NCBI GenBank assembly: GCA_031411135.1
Contig: JANOAN010000013.1
Coordinates: forward strand, 152,424 to 216,423
Reading direction: 5' to 3'
Length of the DNA stretch: 64,000 bases
From: a bacterium
Lineage (GTDB): Bacteria > Patescibacteriota > Minisyncoccia > Phycocordibacterales > CAIZLB01
Shown here one piece after another: positions 31,126 through 37,262 of the stretch. The stretch's first letter is position 1, and each line of letters opens with the position of its first letter. The translations under genes and the position numbers were made by a program. Under the pieces are notes generated by a model. The model was not told where the DNA came from and made no database searches. It saw only the letters and a program-made list of their open reading frames with translations.

Positions 31126-32058
31126 TTACTTCAAATTCTGATACCCCACAACTATTGCCTCGGCAATAAATAGTTCCAAGTGAGAGTAATTATCATGCTC
31201 TTGGGCTTGTTCAAGGTAAGTGTAGTATAGAATCTTTTTTTCTTTTTCAATAATAGAAGGAGAGATTTTGTGCGACAAAAGCATTGTATTAAGTAGTAGT
31301 CTCCTCACTCTACCGTTCCCATCGGAAAAAGGATGAATCTTTTCAAACCTCGCGTGTATTTCAGAGGATTTTTTTATGAAATCCCTGTTATTTAATTTTT
31401 TCGCTTCATTAATTTCATTAACTAAGATCTCCATTAATTCTGGTACTCTAATATAATTAGCTGTAACAACATTTGTTCCAGCAATTCTCACACCGTGATT
31501 TCTGTAATTTCCGGCATTATCCATAATGCCATTCATGAGTATTTCGTGAAGCCTTTTGATATACCTCCCATCTAGATCTTTTTTTGAAGCGAGAAAGTCA
31601 AACATGTACTGAATAGCCACTTTGTGGTTCTTGGCTTCTATTTGCTCAACAAGGGTTTTATTTTTAAGATTCGTATTCTCAAAAATTACCATAGCAGTTT
31701 CTCTTTCAGTTAAAGTACTACCCTCTATAGCATCAGAATGGTAAGTTGACCTGACGCAAAAATGTTCATATAAATCTTTTCTTTGTAAAACGAGATTCAA
31801 TGGATCACTTATTAGTTGTGAAAAGTTTAATATTTGATCGTAAACTTTTTCAAGTTCGAGACTGGAAACTTCACCTTTTCCTGTATATTTATCATAAAGA
31901 TCATTGATTTTATTCAAAGCTTTTGGTCGAGGTGAGGATTTACCGAGAAACCATGCATTAAACGCAGGAAAACTCACACCAAACATGCTAGCAAGCTCGG
32001 TCTGCGTAAAATTCAATTTTTCCTGAATTTTTCTTAATTTTTCCTGAGTTTCGGTCAT
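31126..32058 (-). CDS. Fic family protein with N-terminal HTH
   Basis: HPFSDGNGRVRR (HPFx[DE]GNGR Fic motif). N-terminal XRE-like HTH. Confidence 0.85.
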   Translation of the reverse strand: MTETQEKLRKIQEKLNFTQTELASMFGVSFPAFNAWFLGKSSPRPKALNKINDLYDKYTGKGEVSSLELEKVYDQILNFSQLISDPLNLVLQRKDLYEHFCVRSTYHSDAIEGSTLTERETAMVIFENTNLKNKTLVEQIEAKNHKVAIQYMFDFLASKKDLDGRYIKRLHEILMNGIMDNAGNYRNHGVRIAGTNVVTANYIRVPELMEILVNEINEAKKLNNRDFIKKSSEIHARFEKIHPFSDGNGRVRRLLLNTMLLSHKISPSIIEKEKKILYYTYLEQAQEHDNYSHLELFIAEAIVVGYQNLK

Positions 32059-32115: not shown

Positions 32116-32838
32116 TTATTTACTAAATTCCCTTACAATCTCTTCCTCATCAACTTTTGAAATTGATTTTTTAAACAAAGCTTTCTTTCCGTGTACTCTT
32201 TTTTTACATTCATCCCAAGTTTGATCAATATTAATTTTTCCTTGAACCATGCTGACATATGAGAATGCTGGTGATTTATTCTTTGATGATTTTTTAGTTG
32301 GAACTCCAACTTTAATATTTAAAACCACATCCTTGTTTGGATACTCGGCTAAAAACCCACTGTACAAATCTGGCTTCTTTCCATCCGCATAAGCAGTCGC
32401 AATTTCATCGCACCTCTCGTTTCCAAAAATTTCGCTGTGCCCTTTCAAAAGAGTCCATTTGATTTCTTTTCCTTTTAATACAGAATCCATTTCTTGCCAC
32501 AAATCTATGTTTTTAACTTCTTCTTTTGTTGAACTGATCCAGTTTTTAGCTTTCCATCCGTGAAGCCATTTTGTAGCACCGTTTAACACATATGCGGAAT
32601 CTAATCTAACTTCATATTTTGTAACAGTACCTTTAGCATAGTAGTCATCAAAGAATTTTAAACCTTCAATTACAGCCTTTAATTCCATTCGGTTGTTGGT
32701 TGTTAAGTCCTCTCGGCCCCCTCTTTCGTCAATTCGCATTTCGTCAGCGTCGTTTGGGTATATACAGATAAAGCCGTAGCCACCAGGGCCAGGGTTTCCG
32801 CGAGATGATCCGTCGGTGTAGATGGTGATGGGTTTCAT
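32116..32838 (-). CDS. rnhA: ribonuclease HI with C-terminal RNA/DNA hybrid-binding domain (HBD)
   Basis: TDGSSRGNPGPGGYG...TNNRMELKA RNase H core. C-terminal FSYVSMVQGK...TWDECKKRVHG...KKF resembles the hybrid-binding (caulimovirus viroplasmin-like) domain. Starts 8 nt after the RT stop. Confidence 0.8.
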   Translation of the reverse strand: MKPITIYTDGSSRGNPGPGGYGFICIYPNDADEMRIDERGGREDLTTNNRMELKAVIEGLKFFDDYYAKGTVTKYEVRLDSAYVLNGATKWLHGWKAKNWISSTKEEVKNIDLWQEMDSVLKGKEIKWTLLKGHSEIFGNERCDEIATAYADGKKPDLYSGFLAEYPNKDVVLNIKVGVPTKKSSKNKSPAFSYVSMVQGKINIDQTWDECKKRVHGKKALFKKSISKVDEEEIVREFSK

Positions 32839-32846
32839 GAGGGGTA

Positions 32847-33830
32847 TTATAACACCTGGTCTATTTGCTCTACTAATTTTCTAGAATTTCCATGAGACAA
32901 AAGCCCTAAATATGACTGTGCCACCTCATCAATCTTGTTATCTTTTAAATTCCTAAACATCCTACGTTTTGCCGCGGATCTTAAAACCCGACAATCTGTA
33001 AAATGTACCCATCCCAAAAAATCTACACCTGGTGCAAGAGTCCGTATAAAAATTTTGTCCGGGTGAAGAGAAAGTTTTAGTCTTGATAGCAAAAAATCGT
33101 GAATTTTTGACAGCACATTTTCTAGCCACGACTTGTCCTTGTTCATAATTACAAAATCATCAGCATACCGGATATAATATTTCGCTTTTATCTTGTGTTT
33201 AACAAACTGGTCAAACTCATTCATGTAAATATTAACTAACAATTGAGACGTAAGATTACCTAAAGGCAACCCTTTACCTACAGCAGTGCTGTGAAAACTT
33301 GAAAGTATGCGATTGAGCAACCAAATAATATCCTGATCCTGTATGTGCACTTTTAATATTTCTACTAACACACTTTGATCAATTGAGGCAAAGAATTTCC
33401 TGATATCGCATTTTAAAACCCAAAGCGTTTTTGAATAATTATTACTCGCTTTATAGGAATATTTTCTAAACTGATTTAATGCTTTGTGTGTTCCTTTACC
33501 TAACCTGCACGAATAGGAGCTTGAACTAAATTTTCGATCAAAATACGGGTACAAGATTCGGTATATTGCATGGTGAAGCAACCTGTCTCTCACTTTTGCT
33601 TTATGAATATTTCTTGGCTTTGGGTCAGAAATATTGAAAGCTTCATACTCTCCATGCATATATGTCTTATGAACAAGGTCGTTATGTAGAGAAATAATAT
33701 TATGCATTAAATTACGCTCAAATTCCTGCGTATCCTTTCTTCCTCTTTTGCCACGGATAAATTCCTGCCAAGCTTCGAGCAAATTTTCCAAAGAGATGAT
33801 ATCTTTATACTTAAAAATAAAAAAAGACAC
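32847..33830 (-). CDS. DGR-type reverse transcriptase
   Basis: RT motifs DIRKFFASID, LPLGNLTSQ (DGR-specific [I/L]GxxxSQ) and YADDFVIM. GTG start. Adjacent to Avd and TR. Confidence 0.9.
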   Translation of the reverse strand: MSFFIFKYKDIISLENLLEAWQEFIRGKRGRKDTQEFERNLMHNIISLHNDLVHKTYMHGEYEAFNISDPKPRNIHKAKVRDRLLHHAIYRILYPYFDRKFSSSSYSCRLGKGTHKALNQFRKYSYKASNNYSKTLWVLKCDIRKFFASIDQSVLVEILKVHIQDQDIIWLLNRILSSFHSTAVGKGLPLGNLTSQLLVNIYMNEFDQFVKHKIKAKYYIRYADDFVIMNKDKSWLENVLSKIHDFLLSRLKLSLHPDKIFIRTLAPGVDFLGWVHFTDCRVLRSAAKRRMFRNLKDNKIDEVAQSYLGLLSHGNSRKLVEQIDQVL

Positions 33831-33833
33831 ACC

Positions 33834-34223
33834 ATGAATACTACACCCCCCCCGAGAATGCTACCAGTGCTTCAGCGTCTAAAAAGCCTCTATATCTTGT
33901 GGCATGACTACTACCAAACCATACCAAAAATCCACAGACACTCTCTTGGTCAGAGAATCGATACTTTATTTGTGGAAACCATCGAGGCAATATCGGTTGC
34001 AAGCTTTTTATCTAAAGATGAAAAGCAACCTTGGGTTCGGTTAGCTATACGAAAAGTTGATACTACTAAGATACTTTTGATGGTGTTATGGGAAACCAAA
34101 TCTCTAGATAATAAAAAATATATAGCCCTTTCTGGACCCATAGATGAAATAGGAAAAATGCTTGGCGGATGGCAAGGACAGATAGCAGCGCAACTTTCTA
34201 AACAAAACTCCTCCGCCATATAG
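33834..34223 (+). CDS. avd: DGR accessory variability determinant (Avd)
   Basis: 129-aa four-helix-bundle-like protein that aligns with Bordetella-phage Avd (YILWHDYYQTIPK..., ...IDEIGKMLGGW). Encoded divergently from the RT. Confidence 0.75.
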   Translation: MNTTPPPRMLPVLQRLKSLYILWHDYYQTIPKIHRHSLGQRIDTLFVETIEAISVASFLSKDEKQPWVRLAIRKVDTTKILLMVLWETKSLDNKKYIALSGPIDEIGKMLGGWQGQIAAQLSKQNSSAI

Positions 34224-34243
34224 ACAGAGGAGAAATGAAAAGA

Positions 34244-34371
34244 TTTGCGAAACCCAAAGCAGTATTGTTGGCGTTACGGTTGTTGTCGAGCCAGTTGGCA
34301 TTCCAGTTCCAGGAGCCATCATCGTTCCGATAGAGATACAGGGCGTTCCGGTTGCCGTTCGGGTTGCGAAG
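34244..34371 (-). repeat. DGR template repeat (TR), 128 nt, adenine-rich on minus strand (AAY codons)
   Basis: Identical to 34772-34899 except at 21 positions that are all T on the plus strand (A on the minus strand). Encodes NRNALYLYRNDDGSWNWNANWLDNNRNANNTALGFAN. Confidence 0.9.
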
Positions 34372-34641
34372 AATTGTATAAAGCACCGCCTATTTCACCA
34401 CCCCTTGAAGTCCCGTGACGATCTCAGGATTGAATCGTATTCGGCATCGTAATGCCATAGTGCCTTACACCAAGTATCTTCATTTTTGTTGAAGTGTCTG
34501 CATGCACCACTCTACCTGAAGCCTTGACCGCAGATACTCTCGATGCACGGATACTGGATTCGGTAGGAAGAAACCTTAATCTCTTCCATATTCACCTACT
34601 ACCGCTTTTTATCTTATCCTAAAAAATTAAATTTTGATATA

Positions 34642-34670
34642 GAAAAACCCCGCGCAAATGCAACGGGGCT
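34642..34670 (-). terminator. intrinsic terminator downstream of the DGR target gene
   Basis: ccccg-cgcaaatgcaa-cgggg with a T-run on the minus strand. Confidence 0.6.
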
Positions 34671-34767
34671 GGAAGATTTGGAGTTGTATCTTGCCATAAC
34701 TTACTTTTTGAGCCGAAGAGCAAAGTTCAAAGGGTCAGAGGAGACCACAGTGTCCAAAGCCCGAGAG

Positions 34768-35397
34768 CTACTCTGCGAAACCCAAAGCAGTATCGCTGGC
34801 GCTACGGCTGCGGTCGAGCCAGCCGGCACTCCAGTCCCAGGAGCCACCATCGCGCCGATAGAGACACAGGGCGCCCCGGCGGCCGTACGGGCTGCGAAGG
34901 GTGGTTCCGAGGAATTCGATCCAGCTGACGTTGAGGGTCTTGTGGAGCCACTTCAAGGTCGTCTGGTTCTCTTCCTTGTAAAGCGCTTCGCCGATCTTGG
35001 CATCCGCTTGGATCGCTTTCAGCAGGAGCCGTGCGCGTTTCTCTTCGCCGGTGACTGTGGTTTCGTCATCGATGAGGCCCGTCTGTGCGATGAGCTTCGT
35101 CGGGTCGAGTTCGGTGATGGCGAGCGAGCTCTTGTCCTGCTCTTCGTCGCCTTTGAGTCCATCGCCGTCCTTCGGTCCGCGCCAGATGCTCCAGCCTTCG
35201 CCGGTGAACGTGGCGGGGTCGAACGGAGTGGTGCGGTCGATCTTCAGGACTTGTGGTTTAAGGACGTGTTCGAGGGGAACGACGACGGTTTCGCCACGAA
35301 GGAATTTCAACGCTCCTGGCGTTCCTCCGAGCTTTTTTACGATTGCATTCAATTGCCCACCTGTAAGGTCGGCCATTGCGAATTTATCTTCTGACAT
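34768..35397 (-). CDS. DGR target protein (hypothetical, C-terminal C-type-lectin/FGE-like variable region)
   Basis: 209 aa, about 58 percent GC. C-terminus LYRRDGGSWDWSAGWLDRSRSASDTALGFAE is the VR-encoded counterpart of the TR peptide. Confidence 0.85.
   Translation of the reverse strand: MSEDKFAMADLTGGQLNAIVKKLGGTPGALKFLRGETVVVPLEHVLKPQVLKIDRTTPFDPATFTGEGWSIWRGPKDGDGLKGDEEQDKSSLAITELDPTKLIAQTGLIDDETTVTGEEKRARLLLKAIQADAKIGEALYKEENQTTLKWLHKTLNVSWIEFLGTTLRSPYGRRGALCLYRRDGGSWDWSAGWLDRSRSASDTALGFAE
34772..34899 (-). repeat. DGR variable repeat (VR) at 3-prime end of target gene
   Basis: 128-nt ungapped match to the TR with substitutions only at TR adenines (17 A>G, 3 A>C, 1 A>T). Confidence 0.9.
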
Positions 35398-35606
35398 GTT
35401 TCCTCCTTGTGCTTAGTTGCACGTTGGATTTTTCCCCTAATCCGGGGCAGAACCATGACCGTGGTAGTCATAGCCAGAAAACGTTGATAAATCAAGGTCT
35501 TTTGGCTATGACTACTGAAAAAATTGTAAGGTTCTGAACTGTTTAATATTATATCACATCATATATCTTCTTGTCAAGCTCAGCGTAATGGTTCAATACC
35601 TTTGCA

Positions 35607-37262
35607 TCACCTCCCTTTCAAAATCTCCACCGCCCTTAACCTCAACTCCGGTCGCCCTTTAAAACTCGACTTCTCAACCGTCGCAACCATATCAATCACA
35701 TCATTCACCGCCACCACAATATCACTGAAAAAACTAATCGCCGGAAGTATCGCACCATTCTCGTCACCTACCCTAACCTCAACATGCTCCTGCGCCTTTC
35801 CAAATTTTTTATACCCAACCACCGTCACCTTCTGAAGCATAAAAAGTGGTTTTGAATTATTCACCCCAAACGGCACCATCTTCTCAAGAGCATCCCAAAA
35901 CTTCCAATTAATGTCGGATACATTTAGTAAACTATCAACTTCAACTGTCGCATCAACATCACTTAATGAAACCTTACTCATCGCATTAACGAGGTGTTCT
36001 GAAATTAAATGAATATGATCATCGTTTACTGCAAAGCCTCCAGACATCGCGTGTCCACCCGCTTCTTTAAATACCCCCTCTTGAACTGCATTCATTAAAT
36101 CTACCAAATGATACGATCCATTTGATCGGCAAGAACCTTTAATAACCCCCTCTTCATCCCTTCCCCACACAAACGCCGGTTTGTTATAATCTCTCATCAA
36201 ACTATTTGCCACAAGTCCCAATAGTGCCGGCTTCCAATTTGGATTTCCAACCACAATTAGTGGTGCATTATTAAAATCCTCATCTTTGTGATTTTTCTTT
36301 ATATCCTTTGAAATCAACGCAACTTGGACTTTTCTCTCGGTATTTATATCTGTTAAAACTTTGCAAAGACTTTTTGCTTTAACGACATCATCTGTTGAAA
36401 GTAATTCAAAAGCAATCACAGGATCTGCCATTCGAGACGCTGCGTTAATGCGAGGGGTAACCAGAAATTGAATATCATCCTCAGTTGCTGTTTTCGGATC
36501 CAGTTTTAAAGAAAGAAAAAGTTGCTGCAAACCTACACGCATATTTTTCTTCATCACCTTTAATCCATACGAAGCTAAAATTCTATTCTCTCCAATCAAA
36601 GGGACCATGTCAGACAAAGTCGCAAGCCCCACCATATCCAAGGACCACTTCTCCATTCCATCTTTTATCTCAAATTTTTTGTACAGTGCTTGAATTAATT
36701 TGTAAACTACACCCGAACCACACAAAATCTTTTCAGGATATGTGCACCCCGGTTGTTGCGGATCCAAAATCGCATAAGCTTCTGGAAGTTTCTCATGAGG
36801 TAAGTGGTGATCGGTAATTATGACCTGTATTCCCAATGAATTTGCATGTGCAACCTCATCAACGTCAGCAATTCCGCAATCTGCTGTAATTAACAATTTC
36901 GCACCCTGAGATGCAATCTTTTCAACCGCATCACTATTCAATCCAAAACCTTCCTTGTGTCGATGTGGGATATAGAACATAACATTGTCATATGAAATCT
37001 TTTTAAAGAAATCATGAAAAACCACTCCGGCAGGAATTCCATCTGCATCGTAATCTGTGTAGATACAAATTTTTTCTTTATTTTTTACAGCCTCAAATAC
37101 CCTTAGAACCACCTTCTCCATGTCTTTCATTAGATACGAATCATAAGTTCCCTTGTCATAATCAGGGTTTAAAAAGGCCTCCTTATCCTTAACTCCTCTG
37201 TGAAAAAGTAGATGATCAATCAAACTTCCCTCTGCCATGTCTCGAATGCGGTATTTTGCCAT
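35607..37262 (-). CDS. recJ: single-stranded-DNA-specific exonuclease RecJ
   Basis: DHH (ITDHH) and DHHA1 (GGHAMSGG) motifs. 551 aa. Confidence 0.85.
   Translation of the reverse strand: MAKYRIRDMAEGSLIDHLLFHRGVKDKEAFLNPDYDKGTYDSYLMKDMEKVVLRVFEAVKNKEKICIYTDYDADGIPAGVVFHDFFKKISYDNVMFYIPHRHKEGFGLNSDAVEKIASQGAKLLITADCGIADVDEVAHANSLGIQVIITDHHLPHEKLPEAYAILDPQQPGCTYPEKILCGSGVVYKLIQALYKKFEIKDGMEKWSLDMVGLATLSDMVPLIGENRILASYGLKVMKKNMRVGLQQLFLSLKLDPKTATEDDIQFLVTPRINAASRMADPVIAFELLSTDDVVKAKSLCKVLTDINTERKVQVALISKDIKKNHKDEDFNNAPLIVVGNPNWKPALLGLVANSLMRDYNKPAFVWGRDEEGVIKGSCRSNGSYHLVDLMNAVQEGVFKEAGGHAMSGGFAVNDDHIHLISEHLVNAMSKVSLSDVDATVEVDSLLNVSDINWKFWDALEKMVPFGVNNSKPLFMLQKVTVVGYKKFGKAQEHVEVRVGDENGAILPAISFFSDIVVAVNDVIDMVATVEKSSFKGRPELRLRAVEILKGR

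What the first reader, a model, noticed from the sequence alone, without database searches (positions are those of the whole stretch)
32116..35530. Complete diversity-generating retroelement (RT + Avd + TR + VR target) in a CPR-like genome
All canonical DGR parts are present within 3.3 kb. The first is a reverse transcriptase with the DGR-specific LGNLTSQ replacement of QGxxxSP, plus DIRKFF and YADD motifs. The second is an Avd-like 129-aa protein alignable to Bordetella-phage Avd. The third is a 128-nt template repeat rich in AAY codons. The fourth is a cognate variable repeat forming the last 128 nt of a small target gene whose C-terminus (GGSWxWxAxWLDxxRxAxxTALGFA) matches the C-type-lectin/FGE-like VR scaffold used by DGR targets. 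An intrinsic terminator follows the target gene, and a 13-bp inverted repeat lies upstream at about 35466-35520.
Basis: partly seen in the sequence, partly recalled or inferred. Interest (0 to 1): 0.9.

Follow-up and report, generated by a model that had tools for sequence, protein, structure and literature searches.

The report
Complete Patescibacterial (CPR-type) diversity-generating retroelement
This is a real, intact diversity-generating retroelement of the kind already known to be common in Patescibacteria (CPR) bacteria, so it is ordinary as a DGR; its template repeat, however, lies inside a conserved, highly structured small RNA that no RNA catalogue lists.

Summary
A 128-nt template repeat (TR, 34244-34371) and variable repeat (VR, 34772-34899) differ at 21 positions. 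All 21 are TR adenines (P=4e-15), at codon positions 1 and 2. The VR ends a 209-aa target gene. The RT (32847-33830) is 31% identical to Bordetella phage Brt and keeps the LGNLTSQ and YADD motifs. An Avd homologue (33834-34223) is present, but on the opposite strand, head-to-head with the RT. That layout, TR-(avd)-RT, is the published "B3" architecture of CPR DGRs. More than 564 related RTs occur in Patescibacteria genomes. An orthologous locus shows concerted TR/VR evolution, so homing has operated since the two lineages split. The RNase HI gene (32116-32838) is a neighbour, not a part.

Beyond the finding: the TR sits in its own roughly 400-nt transcription unit, with a -10 box, a 233-nt leader, the TR and a terminator. 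Fifty-one of its 65 base pairs covary across 38 loci, and no Rfam family covers it. The leader's elements run in the same order as the Bordetella phage spacer, which lies downstream of that TR. Target genes of this clade are also unusually GC3-rich and carry a conserved 5'-UTR hairpin.

Verdict: new member of a known kind, of moderate interest.

The parts
35548..35577 (-). Promoter of the target gene: TTGACA, 18-nt spacer, TG-n-TATAAT (12 of 12 consensus matches, extended -10)
   Evidence: Both hexamers are conserved in the orthologous locus L001.
35464..35515 (-). Long hairpin (about 22 bp) in the 5' UTR of the target gene. Consensus: GUAGUCAUAGCCAAAAG ... CUUUUCUGGCUAUGACUAC.
   Evidence: the 5' UTR folds with z = -6.4. 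It is conserved in L001, with a compensatory change in a neighbouring small hairpin. It occurs upstream of target genes in at least 14 related loci, including stand-alone target homologues. No Rfam match.
34768..35397 (-). Target gene, 209 aa. RBS AAGGAGGA at 35401-35408. GC 59% and GC3 70% in a 39.5% GC window.
34772..34899 (-). Variable repeat (VR), encoding the C-terminal 42 residues of the target
34733..34746 (-). Small hairpin GGTC-TCCTCT-GACC, 26 nt after the VR. Candidate counterpart of the DGR target-site hairpin. Weak in this window.
   Evidence: Read from the sequence. Relatives have 4-6 bp stems of different sequence at a similar place (GGGTC/GACCC, GGATCC/GGATCC, GGTCTA/TAGACC), seen by eye. 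Not tested statistically.
34643..34669 (-). Intrinsic terminator of the target gene (CCCCG...CGGGG followed by TTTTT)
   Evidence: A GC-rich hairpin plus T run sits at the same place in relatives.
34611..34616 (-). -10 box (TAAGAT) for the template RNA, 6 nt upstream of the conserved leader start
   Evidence: Position-conserved -10 box. 25 of 41 relatives have TGnTAnnnT here. The window copy is weaker because it lacks the TG.
34372..34604 (-). Structured 233-nt leader of the template RNA. P1 34603-34579/34574-34556. P2 34546-34527/34522-34504. LR 5' strand 34485-34477. UACUUG linker 34476-34471. P3 34470-34459/34387-34376, which encloses Pa 34456-34452/34447-34443 and Pb 34430-34423/34407-34400.
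   Evidence: A covariance model of the P3 domain finds exactly one copy per related DGR locus, always on the RT strand upstream of the TR.
34244..34371 (-). Template repeat (TR), 35 adenines
34233..34241 (-). 3' strand (UUUUCAUUU) of the long-range helix LR. It pairs with leader 34485-34477 (AAAUGAAGA).
   Evidence: One search lists many compensatory variants across loci; 9 pairs, 89.7% paired, 6 pairs with changes on both sides.
34200..34232 (-). Terminator hairpin (10 bp, 34232-34208) plus U run (34207-34200) ending the template RNA. It overlaps the last codons and stop of avd on the other strand.
   Evidence: All 7 counted pairs covary.
33834..34223 (+). avd (accessory variability determinant), 129 aa, transcribed opposite to the RT and TR
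   Evidence: Pfam bAvd 41.8 bits (cut-off 40). NCBIfam DivGenRetAVD 55.7 bits, below its cut-off of 80. hhalign against BPP-1 Bbp7: E = 6e-4, probability 29%, shared EIGKMLGGW / EVGRILGSW motif. Foldseek top hits are Avd chains 8ub7_B and 4dwl, TM 0.6-0.69. It lies on the opposite strand in every related locus that has upstream sequence.
32847..33830 (-). DGR reverse transcriptase, 327 aa, GTG start
32116..32838 (-). RNase HI gene with a C-terminal extension of about 90 aa. An adjacent housekeeping gene, probably not part of the element.
   Evidence: RNase H follows the RT only here and in L080, which shares the RecJ synteny. The extension gives a weak Cauli_VI (hybrid-binding domain) hit, E = 0.016.

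Best explanation
The element is a chromosomal, cell-encoded diversity-generating retroelement. It belongs to the Patescibacteria-specific clade (DGR clade 2 of Roux et al. 2021; cassette architecture B3, TR-(avd)-RT, of Wu et al. 2018).

Proposed mechanism:
1. The template RNA is transcribed from its own promoter. It consists of a 233-nt structured leader, the 128-nt TR and a terminator hairpin.
2. The RT, together with Avd, copies the TR into cDNA and misincorporates opposite adenines.
3. The cDNA replaces the VR at the 3' end of the target gene. This rewrites up to 35 adenine positions, mostly in AAC codons, in the last 42 residues of a small lectin-like protein.

What is shown: all parts are present and intact; the TR/VR differences are adenine-specific; information has flowed from TR to VR since divergence from a sister genome; the RNA helices are real.

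What is inferred: present-day activity, the transcript ends, and the priming chemistry.
For: - TR/VR: 21 of 21 mismatches fall on TR adenines, P = 3.8e-15, all at codon positions 1 and 2. The VR reading frame is intact.
- RT: 31% identical to Brt over 308 aa, E = 2e-45, with IGSLTSQ/LGNLTSQ and YMDD/YADD aligned. Group II intron and retron RTs score much lower.
- Avd: family and fold support.
- Family: more than 564 related RTs in Patescibacteria genomes. The same layout recurs throughout: target, spacer of about 350 nt, TR, avd on the opposite strand, RT. TR/VR pairs with adenine-biased differences were found in 59 loci.
- The layout matches the published B3 architecture, which covers 90% of the CPR DGR set (PMC5758913), and CPR clade 2 (PMC8144416).
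- Evidence of homing: against the orthologous locus L001 (same RecJ-target-TR-avd-RT synteny), the two TRs differ at 11 non-adenine positions and each VR carries its own TR's base at all 11. The two VRs differ at 18 of 31 shared-adenine positions and at 0 of 82 shared non-adenine positions.
- Template RNA: 65 pairs, 93.9% paired against 79.2% in shuffles, 51 pairs changed on both sides, covariation 0.548 against 0.261 (0 of 500 shuffles reach it) and 0.11-0.16 for slid controls.
- Chromosomal setting: the flanks are housekeeping genes (RecJ, RNase HI, HIT). Only about 5 close relatives occur in the viral collection.
Against: - There are no population data. A scan of JGI metagenome contigs for VR variants found nothing, so current activity is unproven.
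- Avd scores below the NCBIfam cut-off (55.7 against 80) and has no HMMER hit to solved Avd structures.
- The window's -10 box for the template RNA (TAAGAT) is weaker than in relatives.
- The hairpin after the VR has only a 4-bp stem.
- The substitutions are 81% A>G, which departs from unbiased A-to-N. Selection on the VR could account for this.
- How the RT and avd are transcribed from start codons 3 nt apart is unexplained.
Confidence: 0.9

Rival explanations
1. The DGR is a decayed relic. The parts are recognisable but the element no longer diversifies the target. The TR/VR differences are old.
For: No population-level variation data could be obtained. The sister locus L001 has a 1-nt insertion in its VR that shifts the frame of the last roughly 25 codons, so VR damage does occur in this lineage. 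The window's template-RNA -10 box is weak.
Against: All ORFs are intact. There is no non-adenine TR/VR mismatch in 128 nt, whereas an idle pair would accumulate mismatches at all bases. The 11 of 11 concerted TR/VR changes since the split from L001 show that homing continued after divergence. All RNA helices are intact in the window copy.
Confidence: 0.08
2. The repeat is an ordinary tandem-like duplication of the gene's 3' end that happens to lie next to a non-DGR reverse transcriptase (group II intron, retron or defence RT).
For: NCBIfam's best-scoring model for the RT is group II intron RT/maturase (153.7 bits), but this is far below its cut-off of 300.
Against: Substitutions are restricted to adenines of one copy, P = 3.8e-15. 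The RT is closest to Brt. An Avd gene is adjacent. The same arrangement, with adenine-specific differences, recurs in 59 loci. No intron, retron msr/msd or other RNA family was found by Rfam.
Confidence: 0.01
3. The conserved leader is only a regulatory 5' UTR or a stand-alone small RNA (for example one controlling avd by antisense pairing). It is not a functional part of the reverse-transcription template.
For: No experiment links it to cDNA synthesis. The transcript would converge on and overlap the 3' end of avd, which would allow antisense regulation. The proposed alternative hairpin that would sequester the LR strand is not supported.
Against: Helix LR pairs the leader with the 9 nt immediately 3' of the TR, and P3 ends 4 nt before the TR, so both TR ends are held at one junction. 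The motif occurs once per DGR of this RT clade, only there, and always directly 5' of the TR. In BPP-1, RNA on both sides of the TR is required for cDNA synthesis (bioRxiv 10.1101/2023.10.23.563531).
Confidence: 0.15
4. The element belongs to a prophage or other mobile element rather than to the cell's chromosome.
For: The target gene is compositionally foreign (59% GC against 39.5%). A Fic/HTH gene lies nearby. Five close relatives sit in contigs classified as viral.
Against: The RT and avd have host-like composition. Immediate neighbours are RecJ, RNase HI and HIT-family genes, and this synteny is conserved in L001 and L080. There are no phage structural genes in the ORF list around it. The high GC3 of targets is clade-wide (46 of 49 loci), so it is not a sign of a recent transfer here.
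Confidence: 0.05

Closest known systems
CPR/Patescibacteria DGRs: architecture B3, TR-(avd)-RT (Wu et al. 2018, PMC5758913); DGR clade 2 (Roux et al. 2021, PMC8144416)
   Same: Same gene order with avd on the reverse strand. RT relatives are restricted to Patescibacteria. The element is cell-encoded. The target is small and has no recognisable Pfam or transmembrane domain. Both papers describe these features.
   Different: Nothing at the level of the cassette. In the papers I could read I found no description of the structured leader RNA, its own promoter and terminator, the GC3-rich targets, or the conserved 5'-UTR hairpin. I could not open Paul et al. 2017.
Bordetella phage BPP-1 DGR (mtd-avd-TR-Sp-brt)
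   Same: RT 31% identical and of the same length. Avd has the same fold. Adenine-specific TR/VR differences in AAC codons at the C-terminus of a lectin-fold-like protein. RNA elements flank the TR. A stem-loop capped by UACG and carrying the sequence GCUACGGCUU is found both in the phage spacer Sp and in some relatives' P1/P2 loops.
   Different: [quoted passage not shown]
- There is no spacer between the TR and the next gene.
- The large structured RNA domain lies 5' of the TR instead of 3'.
- The template RNA appears to have its own promoter and terminator.
- The host is a cell, not a phage.
- The target is a 209-aa protein, not a tail fibre.
- The covariance model of the leader does not hit BPP-1.
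Rfam RT-7 (RF03028) and RT-10 motifs (Weinberg et al. 2017, PMC5737381)
   Same: These are structured RNAs found next to RT genes. RT-10 is the BPP-1 TR-brt spacer, and the authors guessed that other RT motifs serve other DGRs. The window's P2 hairpin, with its AGAGU / AGAGUG flanks and GGUCAAGGC loop, aligns with the first hairpin of RT-7.
   Different: The RT-7 match scores only 21.3 bits against a gathering score of 116.8, and skips 145 of the 191 model positions. No Rfam family reaches threshold in the window or in 14 diverse relatives.
DGR variable proteins with a C-type-lectin fold (Mtd, TvpA) and the FGE/sulfatase-modifying-factor fold

Membership tests
Diversity-generating retroelement (DGR) | A reverse transcriptase of the DGR clade, with the (I/L)GxxxSQ motif in place of QGxxxSP, and YxDD | tested here: met
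   LGNLTSQ aligns with Brt IGSLTSQ and YADD with YMDD. 31% identity, E = 2e-45. Best PDB match is bRT at 134 bits, against 67-69 bits for group II RTs. No tree was built.
Diversity-generating retroelement (DGR) | A TR/VR repeat pair whose differences are confined to adenines of the TR | tested here: met
   128 nt, 21 of 21 mismatches at TR adenines, P = 3.8e-15.
Diversity-generating retroelement (DGR) | The VR lies inside a protein-coding target gene, with TR adenines at codon positions 1 and 2 (AAY codons) | tested here: met
   The VR forms the last 42 codons of a 209-aa ORF. Adenines by codon position: 15 / 19 / 1. 13 AAY codons.
Diversity-generating retroelement (DGR) | The accessory protein Avd | tested here: met
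   Pfam bAvd 41.8 bits against a cut-off of 40. Foldseek top hits are BPP-1 Avd chains, probability 1.0, TM 0.6-0.69, from a single-sequence model of pLDDT 72.5. Weak by NCBIfam, hhalign and HMMER against PDB.
Diversity-generating retroelement (DGR) | One-way transfer of information from TR to VR (mutagenic homing) | tested here: met
   Indirect. 11 of 11 lineage-specific non-adenine TR changes are mirrored in the cognate VR. The VRs diverge only at shared-adenine positions (18 of 31 against 0 of 82). Direct activity was not testable.
Diversity-generating retroelement (DGR) | Population-level hypervariability of the VR | not testable with these tools
   No reads were available. The metagenome-contig scan with an adenine-masked VR pattern returned 0 hits.
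Diversity-generating retroelement (DGR) | IMH-type 3' boundary and a hairpin/cruciform downstream of the VR | tested here: inconclusive
   TR and VR diverge sharply after ...GGGTTTCGCA. Only a 4-bp hairpin (34746-34733) follows. Relatives show 4-6 bp stems, by eye only. Wu et al. report such hairpins in only 34% of DGRs.
CPR DGR architecture B3 / DGR clade 2 | Order TR-(avd)-RT with avd on the reverse strand, and a Patescibacteria host | tested here: met
   (the same layout in every related locus with upstream sequence). The 80 loci kept come mostly from records labelled Patescibacteria-group (a few labels differ). Definitions taken.
C-type-lectin-fold DGR variable protein | CLec fold with the VR on the ligand-binding face | tested here: inconclusive
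Rfam RT-7 RNA (RF03028) | Score at or above the family's gathering threshold over the whole model | tested here: not met
   21.3 bits against 116.8. Only the first hairpin aligns.
BPP-1-type DGR RNA (TR plus downstream spacer Sp; Rfam RT-10) | [quoted passage not shown] | tested here: not met
   Only 36 nt of hairpin and U run follow the TR before or within avd. The conserved structure is 5' of the TR. Rfam gives no RT-10 hit.

The most novel reading that the evidence does not exclude
In the CPR-type (B3) DGRs the template RNA is an autonomous small RNA of roughly 400 nt. Its functional elements are rearranged relative to the Bordetella phage paradigm: the spacer (Sp) equivalent has moved from downstream to upstream of the TR.

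Reading 5' to 3', the leader contains:
1. Two stem-loops with YAMG tetraloops (P1, P2). They resemble the phage stem-loop that I take to be the Avd-binding one.
2. A 9-nt strand (AAAUGAAGA) that pairs with the 9 nt just 3' of the TR (helix LR). This is the geometry of the phage template:primer duplex.
3. A near-invariant UACUUG linker.
4. One strand of a 12-bp helix (P3). Its partner ends 4 nt before the TR, which is the position of the phage 'cPRT Stop' duplex.
5. A short hairpin (Pa), a conserved single strand (GAAUACGAUACA) and a further stem (Pb).

This is the same order as in Sp: Avd-binding loop, primer strand, stop strand, short hairpin, adenosines and thumb ring, then the RT-binding stem. 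If the correspondence is right, cDNA synthesis is primed from the leader (the 3'-terminal A of the LR strand, or the linker) instead of from RNA downstream of the TR.
Probability: 0.4. Interest if true: 0.65.

Novelty: new member of a known kind. Interest (0 to 1): 0.4.

Why it matters
As a DGR it adds one more example to a clade with hundreds of members. It confirms that the first-stage reader can recognise such elements from raw sequence.

The surrounding analysis is more useful. Nearly all mechanistic knowledge of DGR reverse transcription comes from one phage element, in which the essential RNA lies downstream of the TR. The most DGR-rich bacterial group uses a cassette where that space is occupied by an inverted avd gene.

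A covariation-supported RNA map for this clade gives a concrete construct to test: promoter, 233-nt leader, TR, terminator. It predicts which nucleotides position the two ends of the template. It could also be turned into a covariance model for annotating TRs and DGR RNAs in Patescibacteria genomes.

Two further clade-wide features point to target-gene biology that is not explained by current DGR models. Target genes are GC3-rich (0.64 against 0.41 for the RTs). A sequence-conserved 5'-UTR hairpin accompanies target genes even where no DGR is adjacent.

Tried and rejected
- VR variants in JGI metagenome contigs, searched with a pattern that masks TR adenines: 0 hits. The source organism is not in that collection.
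- Exact-protein lookup of the window's target protein: not on record.
- RNase HI as a DGR accessory gene: rejected. RNase H follows the RT only in the window and in the syntenic L080.
- HMMER of Avd against PDB sequences, as a single sequence and as a 28-sequence profile: no hit at E of 1 or less. Fold comparison was needed instead.
A single-sequence model was used.
- A local hairpin (CUUCA/UGAAG) that would compete with helix LR, as a possible resting-state switch: not supported. 76% paired against 73% in shuffles.
- An early idea that the Pb loop (AGAG) pairs with CUCU after the TR was dropped in favour of the better-supported LR helix.
- Rfam at gathering and E-value thresholds on the window, the template-RNA region, the 5' UTR and 14 relatives: only tRNAs and rRNAs, a sub-threshold RT-7 fragment and spurious miRNA-like hairpin hits.
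- Additional VRs in the window: none.
- Paul et al. 2017, the primary CPR DGR paper, could not be opened. Whether it mentions the leader is therefore unknown.

Full report
**1. What is at the coordinates**

ORF listing and repeat finding show the following on the - strand, in order:
- a RecJ gene (35607-37262)
- a 209-aa ORF (34768-35397)
- a 126-128-nt direct repeat pair 528 nt apart (34772-34899 and 34244-34371)
- a 327-aa RVT_1 protein (32847-33830)
- an RNase HI gene (32116-32838)
- a Fic/HTH gene (31126-32058)

A 129-aa ORF (33834-34223) lies on the + strand between the downstream repeat and the RT. Pfam calls it bAvd (41.8 bits, cut-off 40).

The two repeat copies differ at 21 of 128 positions. 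All 21 are adenines in the downstream copy, which is therefore the TR. The substitutions are 17 A>G, 3 A>C and 1 A>T, with hypergeometric P = 3.8e-15. In the target's reading frame, TR adenines sit at codon positions 1, 2 and 3 in the ratio 15 / 19 / 1. The TR has 11 AAC and 2 AAT codons. The VR ends 1 nt before the stop codon. No other VR-like sequence exists in the 64-kb window.

**2. Identity of the proteins**

*RT.* Its best match among solved structures is the Bordetella phage DGR RT (8ub7_A, 134 bits, E = 7e-38). Group II intron RTs reach 67-69 bits and retron or defence RTs less. Direct BLASTP against Brt from the BPP-1 genome gives 31% identity over 308 aa, E = 2e-45. LGNLTSQ aligns with IGSLTSQ and YADD with YMDD. 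NCBIfam has no DGR-RT model; its group II model scores 153.7 bits, below its cut-off of 300.

*Avd.* It passes Pfam but not the NCBIfam cut-off (55.7 against 80). It gives no HMMER hit to PDB, even as a 28-sequence profile. It aligns to BPP-1 Bbp7 over 100 columns at hhalign probability 29%, E = 6e-4, sharing the C-terminal EIGKMLGGW / EVGRILGSW motif. A single-sequence AlphaFold model (pLDDT 72.5) has the BPP-1 Avd chains (8ub7_B-E, 4dwl) and related four-helix-bundle proteins as its top Foldseek hits (probability 1.0, TM 0.6-0.69).

**3. Family context**

A scan of one genome per species found more than 564 relatives of the RT. The best 80 are at 60-71% identity, and most of those contigs are labelled as Patescibacteria lineages.

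tblastn of the window's proteins against these loci shows that avd is always on the strand opposite to the RT and immediately upstream of it. About a fifth of the loci also have a detectable homologue of the window's target about 1 kb upstream. Self-comparison recovered TR/VR pairs with adenine-biased mismatches in 59 loci at nearly fixed distances: the TR about 450-550 nt and the VR about 1000 nt upstream of the RT start.

[quoted passage not shown] The clade is Roux et al.'s clade 2, restricted to Patescibacteria, whose targets lack recognisable domains (PMC8144416).

RNase H follows the RT only in the window and in L080, which also shares the RecJ neighbour, so this is synteny and not a functional link. 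In the viral collection only about five contigs carry RTs at 58% identity or more. The element is a chromosomal, cell-encoded member of a known, large family.

**4. Evidence that it has been active**

The closest relative of the target (86% identity, GCA_043718245.1, locus L001) lies in the same RecJ-target-TR-avd-RT synteny. I aligned the two TRs and two VRs and counted differences:
- The TRs differ at 12 positions. At 11 of these neither base is an adenine.
- At all 11, each VR carries the base of its own TR.
- The two VRs differ from each other at 18 of 31 positions where both TRs have adenine.
- They differ at 0 of 82 positions where both TRs share another base.

This is the signature of continued TR-to-VR copying with adenine mutagenesis in both lineages after they split. 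Present-day activity cannot be shown here. A metagenome scan for VR variants returned nothing.

**5.

The roughly 400 nt between the VR and the TR are not a passive spacer. In the window and its relatives the order is:
1. The target stop codon.
2. A strong intrinsic terminator (window 34669-34643).
3. A position-conserved -10 box. It reads TGnTAnnnT in 25 of 41 loci and TAAGAT in the window.
4. About 7 nt later, a highly conserved sequence starting GGUAGUAGGUGAAUA.

Immediately 3' of the TR, nearly all loci have GCAAC-UCUUCAUUU-CUC, then a stem of variable sequence, then GAG-UUUUGUUUU. This is a terminator-like hairpin that overlaps the last codons of avd on the other strand.

RNAalifold on 38 loci spanning leader, TR and flank predicts 56 pairs, 45 of which show compensatory changes. 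I added a 9-bp long-range helix (LR) between the leader's AAAUGAAGA and the UCUUCAUUU that follows the TR. LR was found by a complementarity search, which listed many compensatory variants, for example AACGAAGA/UCUUCGUU, AAAUAAAGU/ACUUUAUUU, AAAUGAAAA/UUUUCAUUU and AAAUAAACA/UGUUUAUUU.

The 65-pair structure then gives:

| Measure | Observed | Shuffled control | Slid controls |
|---|---|---|---|
| Cells paired | 93.9% | 79.2% | 40-51% |
| Pairs changed on both sides | 51 | 36 | 21-28 |
| Covariation score | 0.548 | 0.261 (0 of 500 shuffles reach it) | 0.11-0.16 |

The 12-bp helix P3 alone has 10 covarying pairs.

A covariance model of the LR-P3-Pa-Pb segment, built from 37 loci, finds exactly one hit in each non-seed DGR locus. 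The hits score 60-122 bits, lie on the RT strand, and sit about 540-660 nt upstream of the RT. They include loci where the VR is cut off by the contig end, and the five close relatives in the viral collection. The model finds nothing in stand-alone target loci, in distant phage DGRs or in BPP-1.

Rfam has no family for it. The only signal is 21 bits (gathering score 116.8) to the first hairpin of RT-7. RT-7 is one of the RT-associated motifs that Weinberg et al. guessed might serve DGRs (PMC5737381).

**6. How the RNA probably works (inference)**

In BPP-1, cDNA synthesis needs RNA on both sides of the TR. A segment of the downstream spacer (Sp 50-56) pairs with the TR's 3' end and primes from A56. 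Sp 59-70 pairs with the 11 nt just upstream of the TR, forming the 'cPRT Stop' duplex. After that come a short UUCG hairpin, adenosines, a single-stranded 'thumb ring' and a long RT-binding stem. An Avd-binding stem-loop lies just after the TR (bioRxiv 10.1101/2023.10.23.563531).

In the window's RNA, both TR ends are likewise held at one junction. P3 ends 4 nt before the TR. LR starts 2 nt after the last base shared by the TR and VR. The near-invariant linker UACUUG (35 of 38 loci) joins the LR and P3 strands.

Read 5' to 3', the leader runs as follows:
- P1 and P2: stems of about 9 bp with a mismatch or bulge and YAMG tetraloops, most often UACG
- the LR strand
- the linker
- the P3 strand
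- the short hairpin Pa
- the conserved single strand GAAUACGAUACA
- Pb
- the return strand of P3

This is the same order as the elements of Sp. The BPP-1 spacer also contains GCCAACGC-UACG-GCUUGGC. This shares GCUACGGCUU with P1/P2 loops of several relatives. I take it to be the phage Avd-binding stem-loop, but that identification is my reading of the sequence and is not stated in the text I saw.

The simplest reading is that in B3 cassettes the Sp-equivalent lies upstream of the TR. LR then plays the part of the template:primer duplex and P3 the part of the stop duplex. The helices are shown. Their functional assignment is inferred. I give the full correspondence about 40%.

**7. Other clade-wide features**

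*GC content of targets.* The target gene is 59% GC (GC3 70%) in a 39.5% GC window. This is not a local transfer signal. In 46 of 49 related loci the non-VR part of the target has higher GC3 than the cognate RT. The means are 0.644 against 0.410 (Wilcoxon P = 1.9e-12). C is enriched most at third positions (0.35 against 0.20). I have no tested explanation.

The UTR as a whole folds with z = -6.4. Its stem sequence (GUAGUCAUAGCCAAAAG ... CUUUUCUGGCUAUGACUAC) is conserved upstream of target genes in at least 14 loci, with symmetric changes and variable apical inserts. These include stand-alone target homologues that have no DGR nearby.

**8. Verdict**

The element is a complete and, by comparative evidence, recently active DGR of the well-documented Patescibacteria type, so it is a new member of a known kind. 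The interest lies in the uncatalogued, covariation-supported template RNA and its apparent rearrangement relative to the phage paradigm. That remains a hypothesis needing biochemical tests.

Noticed in passing
window 34900-35397 (-), and the target genes of 49 related loci (L011-L090): DGR target genes of this clade are systematically GC-rich at synonymous sites compared with their own RT genes. Mean GC3 is 0.644 against 0.410, higher in 46 of 49 loci, Wilcoxon P = 1.9e-12. In the window, GC3 is 0.70 against 0.33. C is the most enriched third-position base. No explanation was tested.
   Followed up: partly
window 35464-35515 (-); also L001 5880-5935, L003, L005, L006, L012, L014, L027, L028, L043, L067 and others: The target gene's 5' UTR carries a long hairpin whose stem sequence (GUAGUCAUAGCCAAAAG ... 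CUUUUCUGGCUAUGACUAC) is conserved across many target genes. These include stand-alone homologues with no DGR nearby. The apical inserts vary and base changes are symmetric. No Rfam match. It could be an RNA element or a palindromic protein-binding site.
   Followed up: partly
L003, L005, L007/L008, L009 (homologues of the target protein): Several homologues of the target (37-62% identity) sit alone among housekeeping genes, with no RT, avd or template-RNA motif within 6 kb. Either they are diversified in trans by a distant DGR or the family also exists without diversification.
   Followed up: partly
L001 6493-6625 (orthologous VR in GCA_043718245.1): The sister genome's VR has a 1-nt insertion relative to its TR. 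This shifts the frame of the last roughly 25 codons. It may be a real inactivating indel or an assembly artefact in a hypervariable region.
   Followed up: no
window 32116-32400 (-), C-terminal 94 aa of the RNase HI gene: The RNase HI has a C-terminal extension of about 90 aa with a weak match to the RNase H1 hybrid-binding domain (Cauli_VI, E = 0.016, 15.9 bits, below the cut-off of 21). That domain is normally N-terminal.
   Followed up: partly
window 33828-33836: The RT (GTG at 33830, - strand) and avd (ATG at 33834, + strand) start codons are 3 nt apart and divergent, so each gene's promoter must lie inside the other's coding sequence. In relatives the gaps estimated from the tblastn coordinates are also short, usually a few tens of nt. 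How the two are transcribed is unexplained.
   Followed up: no
window 34200-34232, and all related loci: The template RNA's terminator hairpin and U run overlap the last codons and stop of avd on the opposite strand. The stem sequence varies freely between loci while pairing is kept, so the Avd C-terminal tail appears to be dictated by the RNA hairpin.
   Followed up: partly
VRs of the window and of 59 related loci: Substitutions at TR adenines are biased toward G. In the window, 17 of 21. Across the loci, G 635, T 231 and C 169 of 1035. Whether this reflects the enzyme or selection on the VR is unknown.
   Followed up: no
window 34670-34770 (-), and the same region in relatives: The 3' UTR of the target, between the VR and its terminator, is made of short CTTTGG / CTTAGG-like repeats that form small hairpins. 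In some relatives (for example L038, L056, L063, L074) it also shows a partly conserved stretch resembling ...TTTGCTCTT...CAAAAAGT...CAAATCT.... Not analysed statistically.
   Followed up: no
L088 6348-7798, L087 10783-10975, L039 1-541: In three related loci a 16S rRNA gene lies within a few kb of the DGR cassette.
   Followed up: no
window 31126-32058 (-): A gene encoding a Fic domain fused to an HTH/MqsA-like N-terminus lies two genes downstream of the RT. Fic-like matches appear within 5 kb of the RT in three other loci (L034, L038, L075). This is probably coincidental.
   Followed up: no
L093-L097 (IMG/VR contigs): Five contigs classified as viral carry RTs 58-63% identical to the window's, together with the same template-RNA motif (73-96 bits). 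They may be Patescibacteria fragments misclassified as viral, or phages of these bacteria.
   Followed up: no
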